This document shows positions 1 to 4,730 of a DNA stretch of 4,730 nt, piece after piece. The translations under genes were made by a program, and so were the position numbers. Origin of the DNA: a virus (taxonomy: Duplodnaviria; Heunggongvirae; Uroviricota; Caudoviricetes); IMG/VR virus record IMGVR_UViG_2711768074_000004; one strand, given 5' to 3'. The stretch's first letter is position 1. The number at the start of each line of letters is the position of its first letter. The notes beneath the pieces are model-generated. The model ran no database searches. It saw only the letters and a program-made list of their open reading frames with translations, and was not told the DNA's origin.

Positions 1-32
1 CAGTGATCCAGGTCCGGTGTTTCATACGATAG

Positions 33-54
33 TGTCCATTAAAAATGATGGACA
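33..54. promoter_or_regulatory. perfect 7-bp inverted repeat TGTCCAT-N8-ATGGACA, candidate operator / protein-binding site
   Basis: TGTCCAT at 33-39 and ATGGACA at 48-54, read directly; AT-rich spacer TAAAAATG. Lies at the degraded 5' end of the Rha-like gene. Confidence 0.3.
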
Positions 55-123
55 TTATTTTTGTAGAGCCGGAGGAAACAGACCAGACGGTTTAAATGAG
101 CCGGTTACAAAAAGATTCGCATT

Positions 124-552
124 TTGGATTGTTCTCCAGAGTTTTGTGCCCGCAATTTTGCGGAGACATCAATTTTGGTACGCCAGCCCAACGGCGGTAC
201 TCGCAAACTACCTTGCTATCAAATAACCCGCGATGGCTTTGCGTTTCTTGCTATGGGTTTCACGGGTAAACGTGCTGCCCAGTTCAAAGAGGCATACATC
301 AATGCCTTTAACCAGATGGAGAAACAGCTTTCAAAGCCCTCTGTACCGAGCGACGTTGCACATAACGCCAGCGTTCTCTATTCCTACATTTCATCAATTC
401 ATCAGGTCTGGTTGCAGCAGCTTTATCCCATGCTGGAAAAAGCTGAATCACCGCTGGCTGTAAGTCTGTATGACCGAATTAACGATGCGGCATTTCTTGC
501 CCGTCTTATTCATTCGTCGCTGAACTCTTCAGAGGTAAGGGGGCGCAAATGA
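124..552 (+). CDS. Rha-family phage regulatory protein; only the C-terminal half of the Rha domain is in this frame, 5' end appears degraded or frameshifted
   Basis: Translation contains LDCSPEF...NFAETS...LPCYQITRDGFAFLAMGFTGKRAAQFKEAYINAFNQME, which matches the conserved C-terminal half of the Rha domain as I recall it. An in-frame stop lies at 97-99 immediately upstream, and the ORF-track start at 124 is a TTG with no clear Shine-Dalgarno. N-terminal-like fragments appear in the other two frames upstream (MMDIIFVE..., ...EPVT...). Confidence 0.55.
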   Translation: MDCSPEFCARNFAETSILVRQPNGGTRKLPCYQITRDGFAFLAMGFTGKRAAQFKEAYINAFNQMEKQLSKPSVPSDVAHNASVLYSYISSIHQVWLQQLYPMLEKAESPLAVSLYDRINDAAFLARLIHSSLNSSEVRGRK

Positions 553-773
553 TCCGGAATATTTTCAAACGTTTTACCAATCAGACTTTCCGTTGTCCTC
601 GTCCGGGTCAGTGGTACACCACGCCTGCAGGGCATGTTCTACGTGTTAGCCTGGTTGACCGTGAATGTCAGAAGGTGGTTTGTGAACCGCTGGGCCGTAA
701 TTACCGCGTCAGTATGCCGCTTATAGCCTTTCGCTCCGGAAAAAACATGAAGCATCTCGGAGGTGCTGCATGA
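549..773 (+). CDS. hypothetical small phage protein (74 aa)
   Basis: ATG at 549 overlaps the upstream stop (ATGA). Shine-Dalgarno-like AAGGGGG at 538-543. Its stop in turn overlaps the start of the replication gene. Three Cys residues; no family recognised. Confidence 0.5.
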   Translation: MIRNIFKRFTNQTFRCPRPGQWYTTPAGHVLRVSLVDRECQKVVCEPLGRNYRVSMPLIAFRSGKNMKHLGGAA

Positions 774-1588
774 GTATGGAGCTGATGGTTAAAGCGATGA
801 AAATTCGAGTGGGAAATCCATTGCGAAAACTGGTTCTGATCAAGCTGGCTGATAATGCCAGCGATCAGGGGGAGTGCTGGCCCAGCTACCAGCATATTGC
901 TGACCAGTGCGAGATTAGCAAACGTTCTGTGATGAATCATATTGCGGCCCTTTGTGAGTCCGGGCTGGTAAAAAAAGTCACCCGGAAAGGTGAAAAAGGT
1001 AACTCAAGTAATATCTATCTCCTTCATCTGGATGGTGCAGGAGATTCACTAGGGGGTAGTGCAAATAATTCACTATCTGGTGCAGCAAATTCACCAGGTA
1101 GTGCAGGAGTTGCACCAGGGGGTAGTGCAGGAGATTCACCCAGAACCAGTCACTCTTTTGAACCAGTCAAAGAACCAGTCAATGAACCAATAGCTGTTGG
1201 TGCATCTGCTGATGAGTCTGTGCGAGTTCGTTCAAACCGACCGGAATACTCTCCGGAGTTTGAGCAGGCATGGCTGGTATATCCCAAACGTGCTGGTGGC
1301 AATTCAAAATCTGCAGCCTTCAAAGCCTGGAAAGCCCGTTTGAATGAGGGGGTAAACCCCGAAACCATGCTGGAAGGTGTGAAACGCTACGCGGGCTGGG
1401 TATCTGCGATGGGTAACAGCGGCACACAATTTGTGAAACAGGCTGTCACGTTCTTTGGTCCGGATCGTCATTTCGAAGAATCCTGGGAAGTTCCTGCGGT
1501 ATCTGCAGCCAGACGCGAGGACCCGTACTTCAAAGCCAGTTACGACAATGTGGACTACAGCCAGATCCCGGTAGGATTCAGGGGGTGA
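770..1588 (+). CDS. phage replication initiation protein: N-terminal helix-turn-helix domain, Gly/Ser/Ala-rich linker encoded by iteron-like repeats, C-terminal domain of unrecognised family
   Basis: ATG 770 preceded by GGAGG at 759-763. N-terminus (NPLRKLVLIKLADNASDQGECWPSYQHIADQCEISKRSVMNHIAALCESGLV) resembles the HTH of phage O-like / DnaD-like initiators. The middle of the gene (1031-1193) consists of direct DNA repeats, as lambda ori does inside gene O. Confidence 0.8.
   Translation: MSMELMVKAMKIRVGNPLRKLVLIKLADNASDQGECWPSYQHIADQCEISKRSVMNHIAALCESGLVKKVTRKGEKGNSSNIYLLHLDGAGDSLGGSANNSLSGAANSPGSAGVAPGGSAGDSPRTSHSFEPVKEPVNEPIAVGASADESVRVRSNRPEYSPEFEQAWLVYPKRAGGNSKSAAFKAWKARLNEGVNPETMLEGVKRYAGWVSAMGNSGTQFVKQAVTFFGPDRHFEESWEVPAVSAARREDPYFKASYDNVDYSQIPVGFRG
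1031..1141. repeat. five imperfect ~20-24 bp direct repeats (iteron-like), core GGT(A)GTGCA-N5-T(T/G)CAC with internal dyad symmetry; putative phage ori
   Basis: Units read directly: 1031 GATGGTGCAGGAGATTCACT; 1051 AGGGGGTAGTGCAAATAATTCACT; 1075 ATCTGGTGCAGCAAATTCACC; 1096 AGGTAGTGCAGGAGTTGCACC; 1117 AGGGGGTAGTGCAGGAGATTCACCC. Unit 4 carries a perfect GTGCA/TGCAC inverted pair. Confidence 0.5.
1143..1193. repeat. three copies of GAACCAGTCA plus one degenerate copy (GAACCAATAG), immediately downstream of the iteron block
   Basis: GAACCAGTCA at 1143-1152, 1160-1169 and 1172-1181; GAACCAATAG at 1184-1193. Confidence 0.4.
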
Positions 1589-1590
1589 TC

Positions 1591-2079
1591 ATGAGTCTTT
1601 TGAATGAAGTTCAGAAATTCATTGAAGCCCATCCGGGGTGTACTTCCGGAGACATTGCGGATGCTTTTGCAGGTTACTCACGGCAGCGCGTTCTGCAGTC
1701 TGCAAGCAAGTTACGTCAGAGTGGGCGTGTGGCTCACCGTTGTGAAGGAGATACACGCAGACATTTCCCACGCCTGACTGAGAGAGCGCAGGAGCCGGAA
1801 CCACAACCAGTTCGTGAAACCAGACCTGTGCGCAATTTCTATGTCGGCACTAACGATCCCCGGGTGATTTTGTGCCTGACCCGCCAGGCTGAAGAACTGG
1901 AGTCAAGGGGCTTATACCGTCGTGCTGCAACCGTGTGGATGGCGGCATTCCGTGAAAGCCACTCCCAGCCAGAACGAAACAATTTTCTGGCGCGTCGTGA
2001 GCGGTGCTTACGGAAAAGCAGCAAGCGCGCTGCATCAGGTGAAGAGTGGTATCTATCAGGGAATTACGTGGGGGCTTAA
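1591..2079 (+). CDS. PerC-family transcriptional regulator-like protein with an N-terminal winged-helix-like extension
   Basis: C-terminal segment AEELESRGLYRRAATVWMAAF...ERNNFLARRERCL matches the PerC signature as I recall it (A..LE..GLWRRAA.RW ... RR..C). ATG at 1591 follows GGGGG at 1580-1584; the ORF track's GTG at 1585 is in frame and overlaps the upstream stop. Stop TAA 2077-2079 overlaps the next ATG (TAATG). Confidence 0.6.
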   Translation: MSLLNEVQKFIEAHPGCTSGDIADAFAGYSRQRVLQSASKLRQSGRVAHRCEGDTRRHFPRLTERAQEPEPQPVRETRPVRNFYVGTNDPRVILCLTRQAEELESRGLYRRAATVWMAAFRESHSQPERNNFLARRERCLRKSSKRAASGEEWYLSGNYVGA

Positions 2080-2732
2080 TGAGTAATAAATATTGCCAGG
2101 CGCTGGTGGAACTGCGGAACAAACCAGCCCATGAACTGAAGGAAGTGGGCGATCAGTGGCGCACGCCGGACAACATTTTCTGGGGAATTAACACCCTGTT
2201 TGGCCCGTTTGTTCTGGATCTGTTCACTGATGGTGATAACGCCAAATGTGCCGCTTATTACACTGCGGAAGACAACGCGCTGGCGCATGACTGGTCAGAA
2301 CGTCTTGCGGAGCTTAAAGGTGCTGCCTTTGGTAATCCCCCGTACAGCCGCGCCAGTCAGCATGAGGGGCAATACATCACCGGCATGCGTTACATCATGA
2401 AACATGCCAGTGCTATGCGTGATAAAGGCGGGCGCTATGTTTTCCTGATCAAAGCTGCCACCAGCGAAGTGTGGTGGCCGGAAGATGCAGACCATATTGC
2501 TTTTATTCGCGGGCGTATTGGTTTTGAACTGCCAGCCTGGTTTATCCCGAAGGACGAGAAGCAGGTGCCGACAGGCGCTTTCTTCGCTGGTGCTATTGCT
2601 GTTTTCGACAAGACCTGGAAGGGACCGGCAATCAGCTACATCGGGCGCGATGAACTTGAGGCATGTGGTGAGGCGTTTCTGGCGCAGGTTCGCCAGCAGG
2701 CAGAAAAACTTGTCAGGGAGATGGCGGCATGA
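2079..2732 (+). CDS. DNA N6-adenine methyltransferase, phage Dam family; orphan (no restriction endonuclease partner in the window)
   Basis: Translation MSNKYCQALVELRNKPAHELKEVGDQWRTPDNIFWGINTLFGPFVLDLFTDGDNAKCAAYYT...FGNPPYS carries the NPPY catalytic motif of amino-methyltransferases. ATG 2079 preceded by GGGG at 2071-2074; the ORF-track start at 2046 is an in-frame upstream extension lying inside the previous gene. Confidence 0.85.
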   Translation: MSNKYCQALVELRNKPAHELKEVGDQWRTPDNIFWGINTLFGPFVLDLFTDGDNAKCAAYYTAEDNALAHDWSERLAELKGAAFGNPPYSRASQHEGQYITGMRYIMKHASAMRDKGGRYVFLIKAATSEVWWPEDADHIAFIRGRIGFELPAWFIPKDEKQVPTGAFFAGAIAVFDKTWKGPAISYIGRDELEACGEAFLAQVRQQAEKLVREMAA

Positions 2733-3055
2733 CGACGTTAACTCAATGCCAGCAGCAGGTGCTGGATATGCTGATTTCTTACCAGCAAGAGCGTGGCTTT
2801 CCGCCAACCAATCAGGAGGTGGCAACCATGCTGGGATACCGTTCAGTGAATGCAGCGGTGGAGCATCTTCGCGCACTGGAGAAAAAAGGCGTCATCACGA
2901 TAAAGCGTGGCGTGGCCCGGGGGATCACGCTTCATACCGCAGTGAAGGACGACGACAGCGAAGCGGTCGGTATCATCCGCGCACTGCTTGCCGGTGAGGA
3001 GAGCGCCAGGTTGCGTGCAGCCCACTGGTTACATGAGAGGGGCCTGAAAGTATGA
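2729..3055 (+). CDS. LexA DNA-binding-domain family protein (winged HTH only, no S24 peptidase domain)
   Basis: LTQCQQQVLDMLISYQQERGFPPTNQEVATMLGYRSVNAAVEHLRALEKKGVITIKRGVARGITL aligns along its length with the E. coli LexA N-terminus ([65 protein letters not shown]). At 108 aa it has no room for the cleavage site or Ser/Lys dyad. ATG overlaps the methyltransferase stop (ATGA). Confidence 0.8.
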   Translation: MTTLTQCQQQVLDMLISYQQERGFPPTNQEVATMLGYRSVNAAVEHLRALEKKGVITIKRGVARGITLHTAVKDDDSEAVGIIRALLAGEESARLRAAHWLHERGLKV

Positions 3056-3441
3056 AGTTGATCCTTCCTTTCCCGCCCAGTGTGAACACGTACTGGCGAC
3101 ACCCCAACAAAGGGGCATTTGCTGGTAAGAGCCTGATAAGCGAGGCGGGGCGAAAATTTCAGAGCGCGGCGTGCGCAGCAATAGTTGAGCAGTTACGTCG
3201 TCTGCCGAAACCAACGTCGGCACCTGCTTCAGTGGAGATCGTGTTGTTTCCGCCGGATAACCGGATCCGTGATCTGGACAACTATAACAAGGCGCTGTTT
3301 GACGCCCTGACCCACGCGGGTGTGTGGGAAGACGACAGACAGGTGAAAAGAATGCTGGTGGAGTGGGGACCGGTTATCCCGAAAGGGAAGGTCGAGATCA
3401 CTATCAGTAAGTACGAGAAAACGGCGGGTGCAGCCGCCTGA
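3052..3441 (+). CDS. rusA: RusA-family Holliday junction resolvase (crossover junction endodeoxyribonuclease)
   Basis: PFPPSVNTYWRH...RIRDLDNYNKALFDALTHAGVWEDDRQV...EITISKYE parallels E. coli RusA (LPWPPSNNRYYRH...[28 protein letters not shown]...ELTITE), including the catalytic acidic residues. ATG overlaps the upstream stop. Confidence 0.9.
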   Translation: MKLILPFPPSVNTYWRHPNKGAFAGKSLISEAGRKFQSAACAAIVEQLRRLPKPTSAPASVEIVLFPPDNRIRDLDNYNKALFDALTHAGVWEDDRQVKRMLVEWGPVIPKGKVEITISKYEKTAGAAA

Positions 3442-3460
3442 TCAAGAGGAGAAACGAAGT

Positions 3461-4270
3461 ATGAATAATCTGATGGTCATTGATGGTATTGAAGTTCGTC
3501 GTGATGCTTATGGGCGTTACAGCCTGAACGATCTGCATCGCGCAGCAGTAGCATCTGGTGCAAATGCCAGAACCAAGGAGCCAGGAAAGTTTCTTTCCAG
3601 CCAACAAACTGTTGAGCTTGTTCATGAATTGACCAACACCCAGAATTTGGGTGTTGACCCGGTGAGTGTGATTCATGGGGGAAATGAACGGGGAACGTAT
3701 GTCTGCAAGGAACTGGTGTATGCCTATGCAATGTGGATCAGCCCGTCATTCCATCTGAAGGTGATCCGTACTTTCGACATGGTAACCAGCGCACCGGAAA
3801 AATTATCCGGACAGGCTGCTGACAAGATGCAGGCTGGTGTGATTCTGCTGGACTTTATGCGCCGGGAATTAAACCTGTCTAACTCTTCAGTGCTTGGTGC
3901 CTGTCAGAAACTCCAGGAGGCTGTTGGCTTACCGAATCTGGCACCGCGCTATGCCATTGATGCTCCTGCTGACGCGCCTGATGGCTCAAGCCGCCCCACG
4001 CTGTCACTGAGTGCACTGCTGAAGCAGTATGGTATCCGCCTGACAGCTAATCAGGCATATCACCAGATGGCGAAGCTGGGGATCGTTGAACAACGTGAAC
4101 GATACAGCCGCACTGCGATTAACAACATCAAAAAATTCTGGTCGCTGACAGCGAAAGGCTGCATGTTCGGCAAGAACATCACCAGTCCCGCAAATCCGCG
4201 CGAGACGCAGCCGCATTTCTTCGAATCCCGGTTCCCTGAGCTGTTAAAGCTGCTCGATACCGTTCATTGA
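3461..4270 (+). CDS. KilA-N domain protein with KilAC/Ant-like C-terminal region (antirepressor-like)
   Basis: N-terminus MNNLMVIDGIEVRRDAYGRYSLNDLHRAA...GTYVCKELVYAYAMWISPSFHLKVIRTFD is KilA-N-like; C-terminal part (LSALLKQYGIRLTANQAYHQMAKLGIVEQRE...) resembles the KilAC/Ant C-terminal domain. ATG 3461 preceded by AAGAGGAG at 3445-3452; the ORF-track start at 3428 is an upstream in-frame extension overlapping rusA. Confidence 0.8.
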   Translation: MNNLMVIDGIEVRRDAYGRYSLNDLHRAAVASGANARTKEPGKFLSSQQTVELVHELTNTQNLGVDPVSVIHGGNERGTYVCKELVYAYAMWISPSFHLKVIRTFDMVTSAPEKLSGQAADKMQAGVILLDFMRRELNLSNSSVLGACQKLQEAVGLPNLAPRYAIDAPADAPDGSSRPTLSLSALLKQYGIRLTANQAYHQMAKLGIVEQRERYSRTAINNIKKFWSLTAKGCMFGKNITSPANPRETQPHFFESRFPELLKLLDTVH

Positions 4271-4271
4271 G

Positions 4272-4643
4272 GTGACCGTGAGAGCGCTACTGACCCCTGA
4301 AATTGCCCCGCGTATGGGGATCGTATTGTTCAGGCCAGGTTCAGAGCTGATGCCCCTGTTTATGCAGGGGCGTGTCCTGCTGGAGCCTGAGCCGGAACGT
4401 TATTCATCTTTCGCCAGTGGTGCCGTTCCGGCGGCATCACAACCGCTGGCGGATGATCCTGCCGTTCGGGCCGTGTTCCGCAATGAGGCAGTGATCCGTC
4501 GTGCTGGTGGCGTGGAATGTCTTGAAAGCTGGTTACTTCGTGAAAAAGGCTGCCAGTGGCCTCATTCCGACTGGCACAGCGAGAACATGACAACAATGCG
4601 ACACGCGCCGGGCGCAATCCGTCTGTGCTGGCACTGCGGGTAA
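4272..4643 (+). CDS. hypothetical nin-region protein, 3'-truncated by IS1 insertion; last residue and stop codon are supplied by the IS1 terminus
   Basis: ORF opens directly after the KilA-N gene stop (in-frame GTG 4272/4278 near GAGGTGA, or ATG 4314). It ends ...LCWHCG-TAA, where codon GGG 4638-4640 straddles the IS1 boundary and TAA 4641-4643 lies inside the IS1 inverted repeat. Family not recognised; a DUF968/YdfU-type protein is a possibility from genomic position only. Confidence 0.5.
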   Translation: MTVRALLTPEIAPRMGIVLFRPGSELMPLFMQGRVLLEPEPERYSSFASGAVPAASQPLADDPAVRAVFRNEAVIRRAGGVECLESWLLREKGCQWPHSDWHSENMTTMRHAPGAIRLCWHCG

Positions 4644-4730
4644 TGACTCCAACTTATTGATAGTGTTTTATGTTCAGATAATGCCCGATGACTTTGTCAT
4701 GCAGCTCCACCGATTTTGAGAACGACAGCG
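4639..4730 (-). mobile_element. IS1 insertion sequence, partial (92 bp in window), reverse orientation; the IRR end abuts the phage DNA
   Basis: 4639-4730 GGTAATGACTCCAACTTATTGATAGTGTTTTATGTTCAGATAATGCCCGATGACTTTGTCATGCAGCTCCACCGATTTTGAGAACGACAGCG matches the reverse complement of the right end of IS1 as I recall it, including the ~23-bp terminal inverted repeat at 4639-4661. Confidence 0.9.
4654..4730 (-). CDS. insB: IS1 transposase InsB, C-terminal fragment (partial; continues beyond the window)
   Basis: Minus-strand translation of 4730..4654 gives ...LSFSKSVELHDKVIGHYLNIKHYQ-stop, the InsB C-terminus. Confidence 0.75.
   Translation of the reverse strand, partial: LSFSKSVELHDKVIGHYLNIKHYQ

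What the first reader, a model, noticed from the sequence alone, without database searches (positions are those of the whole stretch)
2729..3055. LexA DNA-binding domain without the autocleavage domain: candidate non-cleavable SOS-box binder
Residues ~5-70 align with the LexA N-terminal domain, and the recognition-helix region is largely conserved (RSVNAAVEHL versus LexA [9 protein letters not shown]). The protein is only 108 aa and lacks the Ala-Gly cleavage site and Ser/Lys dyad. Such a protein could bind LexA-type operators and resist RecA-stimulated cleavage, or heterodimerise poorly and act only at phage sites. Either would alter how the SOS response or prophage induction is wired.
Basis: partly seen in the sequence, partly recalled or inferred. 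Interest (0 to 1): 0.7.

Follow-up and report, generated by a model that had tools for sequence, protein, structure and literature searches.

The report
Prophage LexA DNA-binding domain without protease
A small prophage gene, present in about 41% of complete E. coli genomes, encodes the DNA-reading half of the SOS repressor LexA joined to a short helical tail instead of the self-cleaving half; this could let the phage keep LexA-type control after DNA damage, but its function has never been tested.

Summary
Window 2729-3055 (+) is an intact 108-aa gene. Residues 1-70 are a LexA winged helix-turn-helix (Pfam PF01726 E=2.6e-19; AF2 model on LexA-DNA structure 3JSO, rmsd 1.5 A). There is no S24 peptidase domain. 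One detail is wrong: an Ala88-Gly89 pair aligns with LexA Ala84-Gly85. It is not conserved among relatives, so it is probably only a relic.

The gene is under strong purifying selection (dN/dS 0.06). It lies in the replication-to-Q ("nin") region of SfV/mEp460/Stx-type lambdoid prophages and is translationally coupled to RusA. It occurs in 2233 of 5426 complete E. coli genomes, annotated "LexA family transcriptional regulator" (PHROG 362).

The four main base-reading residues of LexA (S39, N41, A42, E45) are kept; E44 is Val and R28 is Asn. Residues 78-108 form a conserved two-helix tail, probably for dimerisation.

Best reading (about 0.4): a RecA-insensitive LexA-type repressor, made during lytic growth, that binds CTGT-type SOS-like operators. 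Main rival: its own operator, as in GIL01 gp6, the only characterised phage truncated LexA homologue. Kluyvera prophages fuse this domain to RusA.

In this window the module is a remnant cut by IS66-like and IS1 elements. Verdict: new member of a known kind, moderate interest.

The parts
2729..3055 (+). Complete gene for the 108-aa LexA-DBD-only protein (stop codon included)
   Evidence: ORF list and sequence. PF01726 E=2.6e-19. phrog_362 full length, E=9e-59. dN/dS 0.057 over 51 distinct alleles. The exact protein is on 528 contigs, named 'MULTISPECIES: LexA family transcriptional regulator'.
2717..2720 (+). GGAG Shine-Dalgarno-like motif 8 nt before the ATG, inside the end of the dam gene
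   Evidence: Read directly from the sequence.
2729..2938 (+). Residues 1-70: LexA-type winged helix-turn-helix (helices 6-22, 28-35, 40-52; wing strands 56-59 and 65-68)
   Evidence: AF2 secondary structure, pLDDT about 80. Foldseek hits 3JSO and 1LEA, rmsd 1.5-1.7 A. dN/dS 0.030.
2840..2869 (+). Recognition-helix segment RSVNAAVEHL (residues 38-47): S39, N41, A42, E45 as in LexA; E44 replaced by Val
   Evidence: Alignment with E. coli LexA. Contact residues from PMC3091678 and PMC11442139.
2939..2959 (+). Residues 71-77: acidic, low-confidence linker (AVKDDDS)
   Evidence: pLDDT below 50 at residues 71-73. Length-variable in relatives.
2960..3052 (+). Residues 78-108: conserved two-helix tail (AF2 helices 74-87 and 93-102), containing the relic Ala88-Gly89. 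Inferred dimerisation or partner-binding module.
   Evidence: AF2 gives pLDDT 87-88 for residues 81-100. Positions 82, 83, 86, 87, 97, 100 and 101 are hydrophobic in all 12 sequences at 40-85% identity. dN/dS 0.10. No Pfam domain.
2046..2732 (+). Upstream phage Dam methyltransferase. Its TGA stop overlaps the ATG of the LexA-like gene (ATGA).
   Evidence: PF05869 E=1e-45. Sequence. Dam lies upstream in 56 of 80 related loci.
3052..3441 (+). Downstream RusA Holliday-junction resolvase. Its ATG overlaps the TGA of the LexA-like gene (ATGA), so the two form a coupled gene pair.
   Evidence: PF05866 E=1e-14. RusA lies downstream with the ATGA junction in 79 of 80 loci. The two are fused in Kluyvera.
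1..108 (.). IS66-like element end that truncates the Rha gene and cuts the module off from its native promoter region
   Evidence: 100% match to sequence annotated IS66-like accessory tnpA in 1738 genomes. Phage homology starts at position 109.
4639..4730 (.). IS1 end that interrupts the DUF968/HNH gene
   Evidence: 100% match to sequence annotated as IS1A/IS1B family transposase in 4963 genomes. Phage homology ends at position 4638.

Best explanation
The gene encodes a small phage DNA-binding regulator derived from the N-terminal part of a gammaproteobacterial LexA: the wHTH domain plus a remnant of the linker. The S24 self-cleaving dimerisation domain has been replaced by a roughly 30-residue two-helix tail.

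Shown here: the fold, the absence of the protease, retention of LexA's main base-reading residues, strong purifying selection, and the position in the lambdoid replication-to-Q operon, coupled to RusA.

Inferred:
1. The gene is transcribed with the delayed-early genes during lytic growth or induction, that is, when host LexA has been cleaved.
2. The tail makes it a dimer.
3. The dimer binds CTGT-type, SOS-box-like palindromes. Because it has no cleavage machinery, it is insensitive to RecA*.
4. It therefore restores LexA-type repression at a subset of LexA-controlled sites. These could be SOS boxes on this and co-resident prophages, and possibly host SOS genes.

The exact target set and the benefit to the phage are unknown.
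For: Identity and fold.

Base-reading residues: S39, N41, A42 and E45 are reported as the primary mediators of CTGT recognition, and changing them alters specificity. E45K abolishes specific binding. All four are present here and invariant or nearly so in the E. coli clade. DBD dN/dS is 0.03. The wing motif RGI is invariant.

Precedent: the LexA N-terminal domain alone retains some SOS-box binding and repression, and has to be removed by ClpXP.

Tail: a conserved hydrophobic core across 40-85% identity, confidently helical but flexibly linked. In Kluyvera the tail is replaced by RusA, a dimeric enzyme from my own knowledge, while the DBD core stays invariant over 15 variants. This fits a need for a dimerising partner.

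Context: the gene lies between the replication genes and Q, in the same orientation, with overlapping stop/start codons and no promoter-like site upstream.

Candidate operators: canonical SOS boxes (TACTGT-N8-ACAGTA) occur in related phages carrying this gene, inside the cI linker and at the start of the late-region methyltransferase gene.
Against: There are no binding data. E44, a listed contact, is Val in this clade and never Glu in any short-family member. R28, a backbone contact, is Asn.

Across the family, position 45 is E, G, A or D and position 44 is V, T, F, A or S. If, as I assume from memory, the Enterobacteriaceae hosts share one SOS box, this looks more like operators co-evolving with each phage than mimicry of one host site.

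GIL01 gp6, the only characterised analogue, binds a different palindrome from the host LexA box and activates transcription.

The window itself holds no SOS-like box above chance: 21 matches against 20.9 expected. The SOS boxes in related phages are absent from several family-bearing prophages (L089, L092, L094, L096, L100). They are adequately explained by host LexA.

Dimerisation by the tail could not be modelled.
Confidence: 0.4

Rival explanations
1. A phage-specific regulator with its own operator, like GIL01 gp6. The domain was captured from LexA but now recognises a phage-specific palindrome and activates or represses particular phage promoters during lytic development. It has little or no action at host SOS boxes.
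For: gp6 is a truncated LexA homologue that binds GaCACAC-GTGTGaC, not the host dinBox, and acts as a class II activator. Positions 44/45 of the recognition helix differ between family members (VE, TG, TA, FE, VA, SD, AD, AE), as expected for co-evolving protein-operator pairs. E44 and R28 are lost. Standalone LexA-DBD proteins are common in many phage groups.
Against: In the E. coli clade all four primary CTGT-reading residues are kept under strong constraint, unlike the diverged gp6. No candidate phage-specific palindrome was found. The genes around it are packed with overlapping ends and no intergenic operator region. Lambdoid late expression is already provided by Q.
Confidence: 0.3
2. A partner of the neighbouring nuclease. 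The protein works with RusA, and perhaps with the DUF968/HNH nuclease. It would recruit or restrain Holliday-junction resolution at particular DNA sites, with the C-terminal tail binding the RusA dimer.
For: RusA lies immediately downstream, with an ATGA stop/start overlap, in 79 of 80 close loci and in most diverged ones. There are natural in-frame LexA-DBD::RusA fusions that lack the tail in Kluyvera ascorbata and K. cryocrescens, in Kluyvera sp. STS39-E (L087), and in metagenomes. These form a cluster of 18 distinct sequences. The DBD core is invariant and the linker variable. One LexA-DBD::DUF968 fusion was also seen.
Against: Adjacent genes in a dispensable operon can fuse by simple deletion, and the DUF968 fusion is a singleton. 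Two diverged prophages have the gene without RusA (L088, L090). From my own knowledge, rusA occurs in many prophages without this gene (for example DLP12 of K-12) and RusA needs no partner in vitro. The fusion is equally explained by RusA merely supplying dimerisation.
Confidence: 0.12
3. A controller of the adjacent orphan DNA methyltransferase, working like a C protein.
For: A methyltransferase lies just upstream in most loci, and it belongs to different families in different loci: Dam (PF05869), a DPPW-motif N6 enzyme, or a 600-660-aa C5-type enzyme, as judged from sequence motifs.
Against: No Dam signature was found directly upstream in 24 of 80 close loci, and no methyltransferase is directly upstream in L085. 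The gene is downstream of the methyltransferase. There is no upstream operator or promoter. PADLOC matched only the methyltransferase, to Type II and orphan methyltransferase models, and gave no meaningful hit for the LexA-like protein.
Confidence: 0.04
4. A non-functional relic: a truncated lexA fragment carried passively by prophages.
For: It looks like the first 90 residues of LexA, including a relic Ala-Gly. This particular copy sits in an IS-bounded prophage remnant.
Against: dN/dS is 0.057 over 51 alleles. The tail, which is not LexA-like beyond residue 91, has a conserved hydrophobic core at 40% identity. The family is conserved across Escherichia, Citrobacter, Kosakonia, Enterobacter and Silvania prophages at the same genomic position.
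Confidence: 0.03

Closest known systems
E. coli LexA N-terminal domain (residues 1-84; PDB 1LEA, and 3JSO in complex with DNA)
   Same: Same winged-HTH fold (rmsd 1.5-1.7 A) at about 50% identity. S39, N41, A42, E45, H46 and the RGI wing motif are conserved. Homology extends through the linker to the Ala-Gly position. The free LexA NTD still binds SOS boxes and represses.
   Different: It is a stand-alone gene product, not a cleavage fragment. E44 is Val and R28 is Asn. It carries a conserved two-helix C-terminal tail. From my own knowledge, the VAA-COOH end that targets the LexA fragment to ClpXP is absent; this protein ends in ...GLKV.
GIL01 gp6 (Bacillus thuringiensis tectivirus), a truncated LexA homologue that activates late promoter P3 (PMC6182141)
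   Same: A phage-encoded, early-expressed protein consisting of a LexA DNA-binding domain without the S24 domain.
   Different: gp6 is essentially the bare domain (the ORF spans 201 nt). It shares 44% identity with its host LexA over that region, has a critical K38, binds its own palindrome and activates transcription. The protein here has a tail, keeps the host-type base-reading residues, sits in a lambdoid nin region beside RusA, and has an untested function. Sequence relatedness to gp6 itself was not tested.
Non-cleavable LexA mutants (for example S119A; Ind- alleles from my own knowledge)
   Same: If it binds SOS boxes, it would behave like a RecA-insensitive LexA (mentions S119A as non-cleavable).
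   Different: Those mutants are full-length dimers with the native dimer interface and full operator affinity. This protein lacks the whole C-terminal domain.
PHROG 362 / NCBI 'LexA family transcriptional regulator' / pham 237 of Stx phages
   Same: The protein is a full-length member. Identical or near-identical proteins carry this name in RefSeq. Most likely the pfam01726 pham listed in 15 Stx phages is this family; that identification is my inference from its Pfam label and was not checked.
   Different: These are annotation labels only. No experiment on any member was found in the searchable literature.

Membership tests
LexA proper (TIGR00498 equivalog; S24 self-cleaving SOS repressor) | N-terminal LexA-type winged HTH | tested here: met
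   PF01726 E=2.6e-19; 1LEA E=5.8e-16; fold match to 3JSO.
LexA proper (TIGR00498 equivalog; S24 self-cleaving SOS repressor) | C-terminal S24 peptidase domain with the Ser119/Lys156 dyad; whole-protein score above the curated cut-off | tested here: not met
   No PF00717 hit. TIGR00498 scores 70.3 bits against a cut-off of 110.95 and aligns only to model positions 1-91 of 203. The protein is 108 aa.
LexA proper (TIGR00498 equivalog; S24 self-cleaving SOS repressor) | Functional Ala-Gly cleavage site | tested here: inconclusive
   A88-G89 aligns with A84-G85 but is not conserved in relatives. In the AF2 model the dipeptide lies at the C-terminal end of helix 74-87, in a helical tail rather than a strand. 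With no catalytic domain in cis, cleavage cannot be self-catalysed. Trans-cleavage was not testable.
LexA proper (TIGR00498 equivalog; S24 self-cleaving SOS repressor) | Binds CTGT-N8-ACAG SOS boxes | not testable with these tools
   The four primary contact residues are conserved, but E44V and R28N differ. EMSA or ChIP is needed.
Stand-alone phage LexA_DNA_bind proteins (PHROG 362) | Full-length match to the family profile | tested here: met
   phrog_362 E=9.4e-59, residues 1-108 against model positions 1-106 of 106.
Stand-alone phage LexA_DNA_bind proteins (PHROG 362) | Conserved position in lambdoid prophages between the replication genes and Q, next to RusA | tested here: met
   mEp460 and E. 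coli 219 prophage maps. Diverged loci. RusA downstream in 79 of 80 loci.
GIL01 gp6-type truncated LexA activators | Truncated LexA homologue consisting of the DNA-binding domain, phage-encoded | tested here: met
GIL01 gp6-type truncated LexA activators | Bare domain with a short C-terminal extension that forms the wing, and no further module | tested here: not met
   The protein here has an extra conserved two-helix tail, residues 78-108. gp6 is described as the HTH plus a 14-residue wing-forming C-terminus.
GIL01 gp6-type truncated LexA activators | Binds its own palindrome overlapping a -35 element and activates a late promoter | not testable with these tools
   No such site was identified here. 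It requires footprinting and reporter assays.

The most novel reading that the evidence does not exclude
The family is a prophage-encoded, RecA-proof 'SOS shut-off' factor. It would be made once the prophage is induced and would re-occupy SOS boxes vacated by cleaved LexA. That would damp host SOS functions (SulA, translesion polymerases, colicins) and block LexA-controlled antirepressors of competing prophages. Because it is present in about 41% of complete E. coli genomes, it would be a widespread, overlooked modifier of SOS dynamics, mutagenesis and prophage hierarchy. A variant of this reading is that it does so as a complex with, or a targeting subunit of, the RusA resolvase, as suggested by the Kluyvera fusions.
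Probability: 0.2. Interest if true: 0.8.

Novelty: new member of a known kind. Interest (0 to 1): 0.5.

Why it matters
LexA cleavage is the master switch for DNA-damage responses, mutagenesis, prophage induction and Shiga-toxin release in E. coli. A very common prophage protein could read LexA operators without being switched off by RecA. If so, lysogens would have a second, phage-timed layer of SOS control. That would bear on antibiotic-induced mutagenesis, competition between co-resident prophages, and toxin-phage induction. If it instead has its own operator or works with RusA, it is a second, independent case of phages re-using the LexA DNA-binding domain (after GIL01 gp6), this time with a new dimerisation tail. 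Either way the question can be settled with simple experiments. At present it is an annotated but uncharacterised family.

Tried and rejected
- SOS-box scan of the window (CTGT-N8-ACAG, up to 2 mismatches): 21 matches against 20.9 expected, so no signal.
- Promoter and terminator scan of the window: nothing above shuffles and no promoter before the gene.
- AFDB50 fold search: library unavailable.
- LexA-DNA structure paper (PubMed id 20703307, and a guessed PMC id): not held. Contact residues were taken from secondary sources instead.
- Distant-relative scan of viral contigs: returned only loci 97-100% identical to the query. The genome scan with the wide alignment failed and was repeated with a narrower one.
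- Working Ala-Gly cleavage site or trans-cleavage substrate: rejected, because the dipeptide is not conserved and lies in a predicted helical tail rather than a strand.
- Membership in a known defence system: no meaningful PADLOC hit for the protein.
- dN/dS on the DBD of the two Kluyvera fusion genes: too few differences to interpret (2 synonymous, 4 non-synonymous). Protein-level conservation across 15 variants was used instead.
- Linking the phage SOS boxes specifically to the presence of this gene: not possible without gene-negative controls. The boxes are absent from several family-bearing prophages.
- Literature searches for any functional study of this family: found only annotation-level mentions.
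- Searches of phages, complete E. coli genomes and plasmids did not find the exact source of the window.
Full report
**1. What is in the sequence**

Window 2729-3055 (+) is an intact ATG-to-TGA ORF of 108 codons. A GGAG motif lies 8 nt upstream. The ATG overlaps the TGA of the preceding dam gene (ATGA), and the ORF's own TGA overlaps the ATG of the following rusA gene (ATGA). This arrangement is typical of translationally coupled genes in one operon.

The window as a whole is the early-right, replication-to-Q region of a lambdoid prophage of the SfV / mEp460 / cdtI / Stx-phage type. The gene order is:
- a Rha fragment
- a 74-aa ORF
- an HTH_36 replication protein
- a PerC-like protein
- phage Dam
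- the LexA-like gene
- RusA
- a KilA-N protein
- the start of a DUF968/HNH protein

Phage homology runs only from 109 to 4638. Positions 1-108 are an IS66-like element end and 4639-4730 an IS1 end. This copy is therefore a 4.5-kb prophage remnant, cut off from the native cI/cro promoter region and from Q.

**2. Check of the observation**

The LexA similarity is real and strong:
- Pfam LexA_DNA_bind E=2.6e-19 over the whole model.
- PDB LexA DNA-binding domain 1LEA E=5.8e-16.
- An AlphaFold2 model (mean pLDDT 79) has the expected three helices and two-stranded wing. It superposes on the LexA-DNA complex 3JSO at 1.5 A over 67-68 aligned columns, with about 50% identity.
- No S24 peptidase domain is detected. 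The lexA equivalog model TIGR00498 scores 70 bits against a cut-off of 111 and aligns only to its first 91 positions.

So the 'DNA-binding domain without the autocleavage domain' description is correct.

One detail is not. The protein does contain an Ala-Gly (A88-G89, in ALLAGEE), and HMMER and MAFFT align it with LexA's RVAA|GEP. Homology to LexA therefore runs through the linker to the cleavage-site position. However, the dipeptide is AN, VG, TR, SG, ER and others in relatives, and in the model it lies at the C-terminal end of the first tail helix (helix 74-87) rather than in a strand. I read it as a relic.

**3. Is it a working gene?**

Yes, at the population level.
- Among 51 distinct 327-nt alleles recovered from related loci, pooled Nei-Gojobori dN/dS is 0.057. 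It is 0.030 for residues 1-70 and 0.10 for residues 71-108.
- The gene is found in 2233 of 5426 complete E. coli genomes, with up to four copies per genome. It is always annotated 'LexA family transcriptional regulator/protein' and flanked by Dam and RusA in the listed hits.
- The exact protein is on 528 contigs.
- It is a full-length member of PHROG 362, 'transcriptional repressor'.
- It is most likely the pfam01726 'pham 237' listed for 15 Stx phages in a pangenome table. That identification is my inference from the Pfam label and was not checked.
- Diverged members (42-65% identity) occupy the same position in prophages of Citrobacter, Kosakonia, Enterobacter and Silvania.

**4. Anatomy relevant to mechanism**

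(a) Recognition helix. E. coli LexA is reported to read the CTGT half-site mainly through S39, N41, A42 and E45, and mutations there change specificity. E45K abolishes specific binding, and R28 contacts the backbone. An older summary also lists E44. The window protein keeps S39, N41, A42, E45, H46 and the RGI wing motif, but has Val at 44 and Asn at 28. In the wider short family S39, N41 and H46 are invariant or nearly so. Position 44 is never Glu, and position 45 is E, G, A or D.

(b) Tail. After a low-confidence acidic linker (residues 71-77), residues 78-108 form two helices with pLDDT 87-88. Positions 82, 83, 86, 87, 97, 100 and 101 are hydrophobic in every sequence down to 40% identity. 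A 30-residue helical hairpin on a flexible tether is unlikely to be stable alone. I infer that it pairs with a second copy as a four-helix bundle, or binds a partner. I could not model this.

(c) Variants with other C-termini exist. These include a 157-aa form in Citrobacter OP27 and 127-134-aa forms. The domain thus appears with several different C-terminal extensions.

**5. The RusA connection**

RusA follows the gene with the ATGA overlap in 79 of 80 close loci and in most diverged loci.

In Kluyvera the domain is fused in frame to RusA. The LexA DBD (residues 1-70) is followed by a variable 10-residue linker and then complete RusA, with no tail. This fusion forms a cluster of 18 distinct sequences. 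Sources include K. ascorbata, K. cryocrescens and metagenomes, and Kluyvera sp. STS39-E carries a near-identical fusion (L087). The HTH core is invariant and the linker variable.

A single LexA-DBD::DUF968 fusion was also seen. In prophages lacking RusA, DUF968 is the gene that immediately follows the LexA-like gene.

Two readings are possible. RusA, a dimer from my own knowledge, may simply replace the tail as dimeriser. Alternatively, the two proteins may act together. The data do not decide between them.

**6. Candidate operators**

The window has no SOS-like box above chance and no promoter-like site before the gene.

Related phages that carry the gene often contain textbook SOS boxes in unexpected places:
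- TACTGTTTTTA(T/C)ATACAGTA inside the linker-coding part of the cI-like repressor gene.
- TACTGTAAAAATAAACAGTG in codons 3-9 of the DNA methyltransferase gene just upstream of the lysis genes.
- The methyltransferase box recurs in Kluyvera and Kosakonia prophages.

The same scan recovers the two known host lexA boxes (known from my own memory) in locus L161, which validates it.

These boxes are natural candidates, but host LexA explains them adequately. They are absent from several family-bearing prophages. I had no gene-negative control set.

**7. Most likely mechanism**

I commit, at about 0.4, to the following. The protein is a RecA-insensitive LexA-type repressor. It is transcribed with the delayed-early genes, which is an inference from lambdoid operon architecture. 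It dimerises through its tail and binds CTGT-type, SOS-like palindromes when host LexA has been cleaved.

Supporting precedent: the free LexA N-terminal domain retains SOS-box binding and repression, and must be destroyed by ClpXP for full induction.

Main rival, at about 0.3: it has evolved its own operator, like GIL01 gp6. gp6 is the only characterised phage truncated LexA homologue. It binds GaCACAC-GTGTGaC and activates a late promoter. The variability of positions 44/45 in the family favours this rival.

Other rivals:
- RusA-partner role, about 0.12.
- Methyltransferase-controller role, about 0.04.
- Non-functional relic, about 0.03. This is largely excluded by the selection analysis.

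**8. Comparison with what is known, and novelty**

It is not LexA, because the defining S24 domain was tested and is absent. It works at most like a LexA N-terminal domain or a non-cleavable LexA.

It belongs to the broad, already annotated class of stand-alone phage LexA_DNA_bind proteins, which are common in phage proteomes. Its closest characterised analogue in concept is gp6. It differs from gp6 in having a conserved helical tail, host-type base-reading residues, and a lambdoid nin-region/RusA context.

No functional study of this enterobacterial family was found.

I rate it a new member of a known kind. Interest is moderate (0.5). The identification itself is routine and already in databases. 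However, the family is very common in E. coli and Stx phages, it is uncharacterised, and it makes a clear and consequential hypothesis directly testable.

Noticed in passing
window 1-108 and 4639-4730: The phage module (109-4638) is bracketed by an IS66-like element end on the left and an IS1 end on the right. These truncate the Rha gene at its 5' end and the DUF968/HNH gene. The window is therefore an IS-bounded prophage remnant without its cI/cro promoter region or Q. No exact source was found among phages, complete E. coli genomes or plasmids.
   Followed up: yes
L086 6001-6627 (Kluyvera cryocrescens); L087 from 6001 (Kluyvera sp. STS39-E): Natural in-frame fusion of the LexA-like DNA-binding domain to RusA (208-212 aa; PF01726 plus PF05866), lacking the helical tail. 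It forms a cluster of 18 distinct sequences, with the HTH core invariant and the linker variable.
   Followed up: partly
P0153 (240 aa; metagenome/ENA): A single LexA_DNA_bind::DUF968 (HNH-like) fusion. DUF968 is the gene that follows the LexA-like gene in prophages lacking RusA. It is a singleton cluster, so it may be a chance deletion.
   Followed up: partly
L002 (mEp460) 31970-31989; L083 from 3103; 23 of 80 viral loci at -2.9 to -5.3 kb from the gene: A textbook SOS box (TACTGTTTTTA[T/C]ATACAGTA) lies inside the coding sequence of the cI-like S24 repressor, in the linker between the HTH and the peptidase domain (peptide SNTVCKNSIS). The purpose of a LexA site inside cI is unexplained.
   Followed up: partly
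L161 24260-24279; L002 41021-41040; L086 from 10822; L087 from 9929; near-matches at L088 from 8926 and L090 from 10113: A near-consensus SOS box (TACTGTAAAAATAAACAGTG) sits in codons 3-9 of the DNA methyltransferase gene just upstream of the lysis cassette. It is conserved in Escherichia, Kluyvera and Kosakonia prophages. This suggests LexA control, or a LexA roadblock, of a late-region methyltransferase.
   Followed up: partly
L002 (mEp460) 23257-23272 and 23285-23300: Two exact CTGT-N8-ACAG boxes 28 bp apart, between the phage dinI-like gene and the integrase gene, overlapping the annotated promoter (23278-23306) upstream of dinI. The same phages therefore carry LexA-controlled accessory genes.
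   Followed up: no
P0128, P0135, P0140, P0144, P0149, P0190 (representative-library hits): Proteins with two LexA_DNA_bind domains in tandem in one chain (141-352 aa). One is also fused to a 6-pyruvoyl-tetrahydropterin-synthase domain. They look like single-chain 'pseudo-dimers' of the LexA DBD. Their taxonomy and context were not examined.
   Followed up: no
L085-L100, upstream of the LexA-like gene: The slot just upstream of the gene is usually filled by a DNA methyltransferase, but of different families in different prophages: Dam PF05869, a DPPW-motif N6 enzyme followed by a 74-88-aa ORF, or a 600-660-aa C5-type enzyme. The latter two types were judged from sequence motifs only.
   Followed up: partly
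window 1585-2079: A 164-aa protein with a PerC transcriptional-activator domain in residues 100-151 (yfdN-like; phrog_1324) overlaps the start of dam. It is another small prophage regulator of unknown target in the same operon.
   Followed up: no
L161 3203-3239 and 3248-3856: In E. coli strain 219 the prophage carrying an identical copy of the gene is integrated at the dusA-like (tRNA-dihydrouridine synthase) site. That places it about 16 kb from the host lexA gene. This is probably a coincidence of the attachment site.
   Followed up: no
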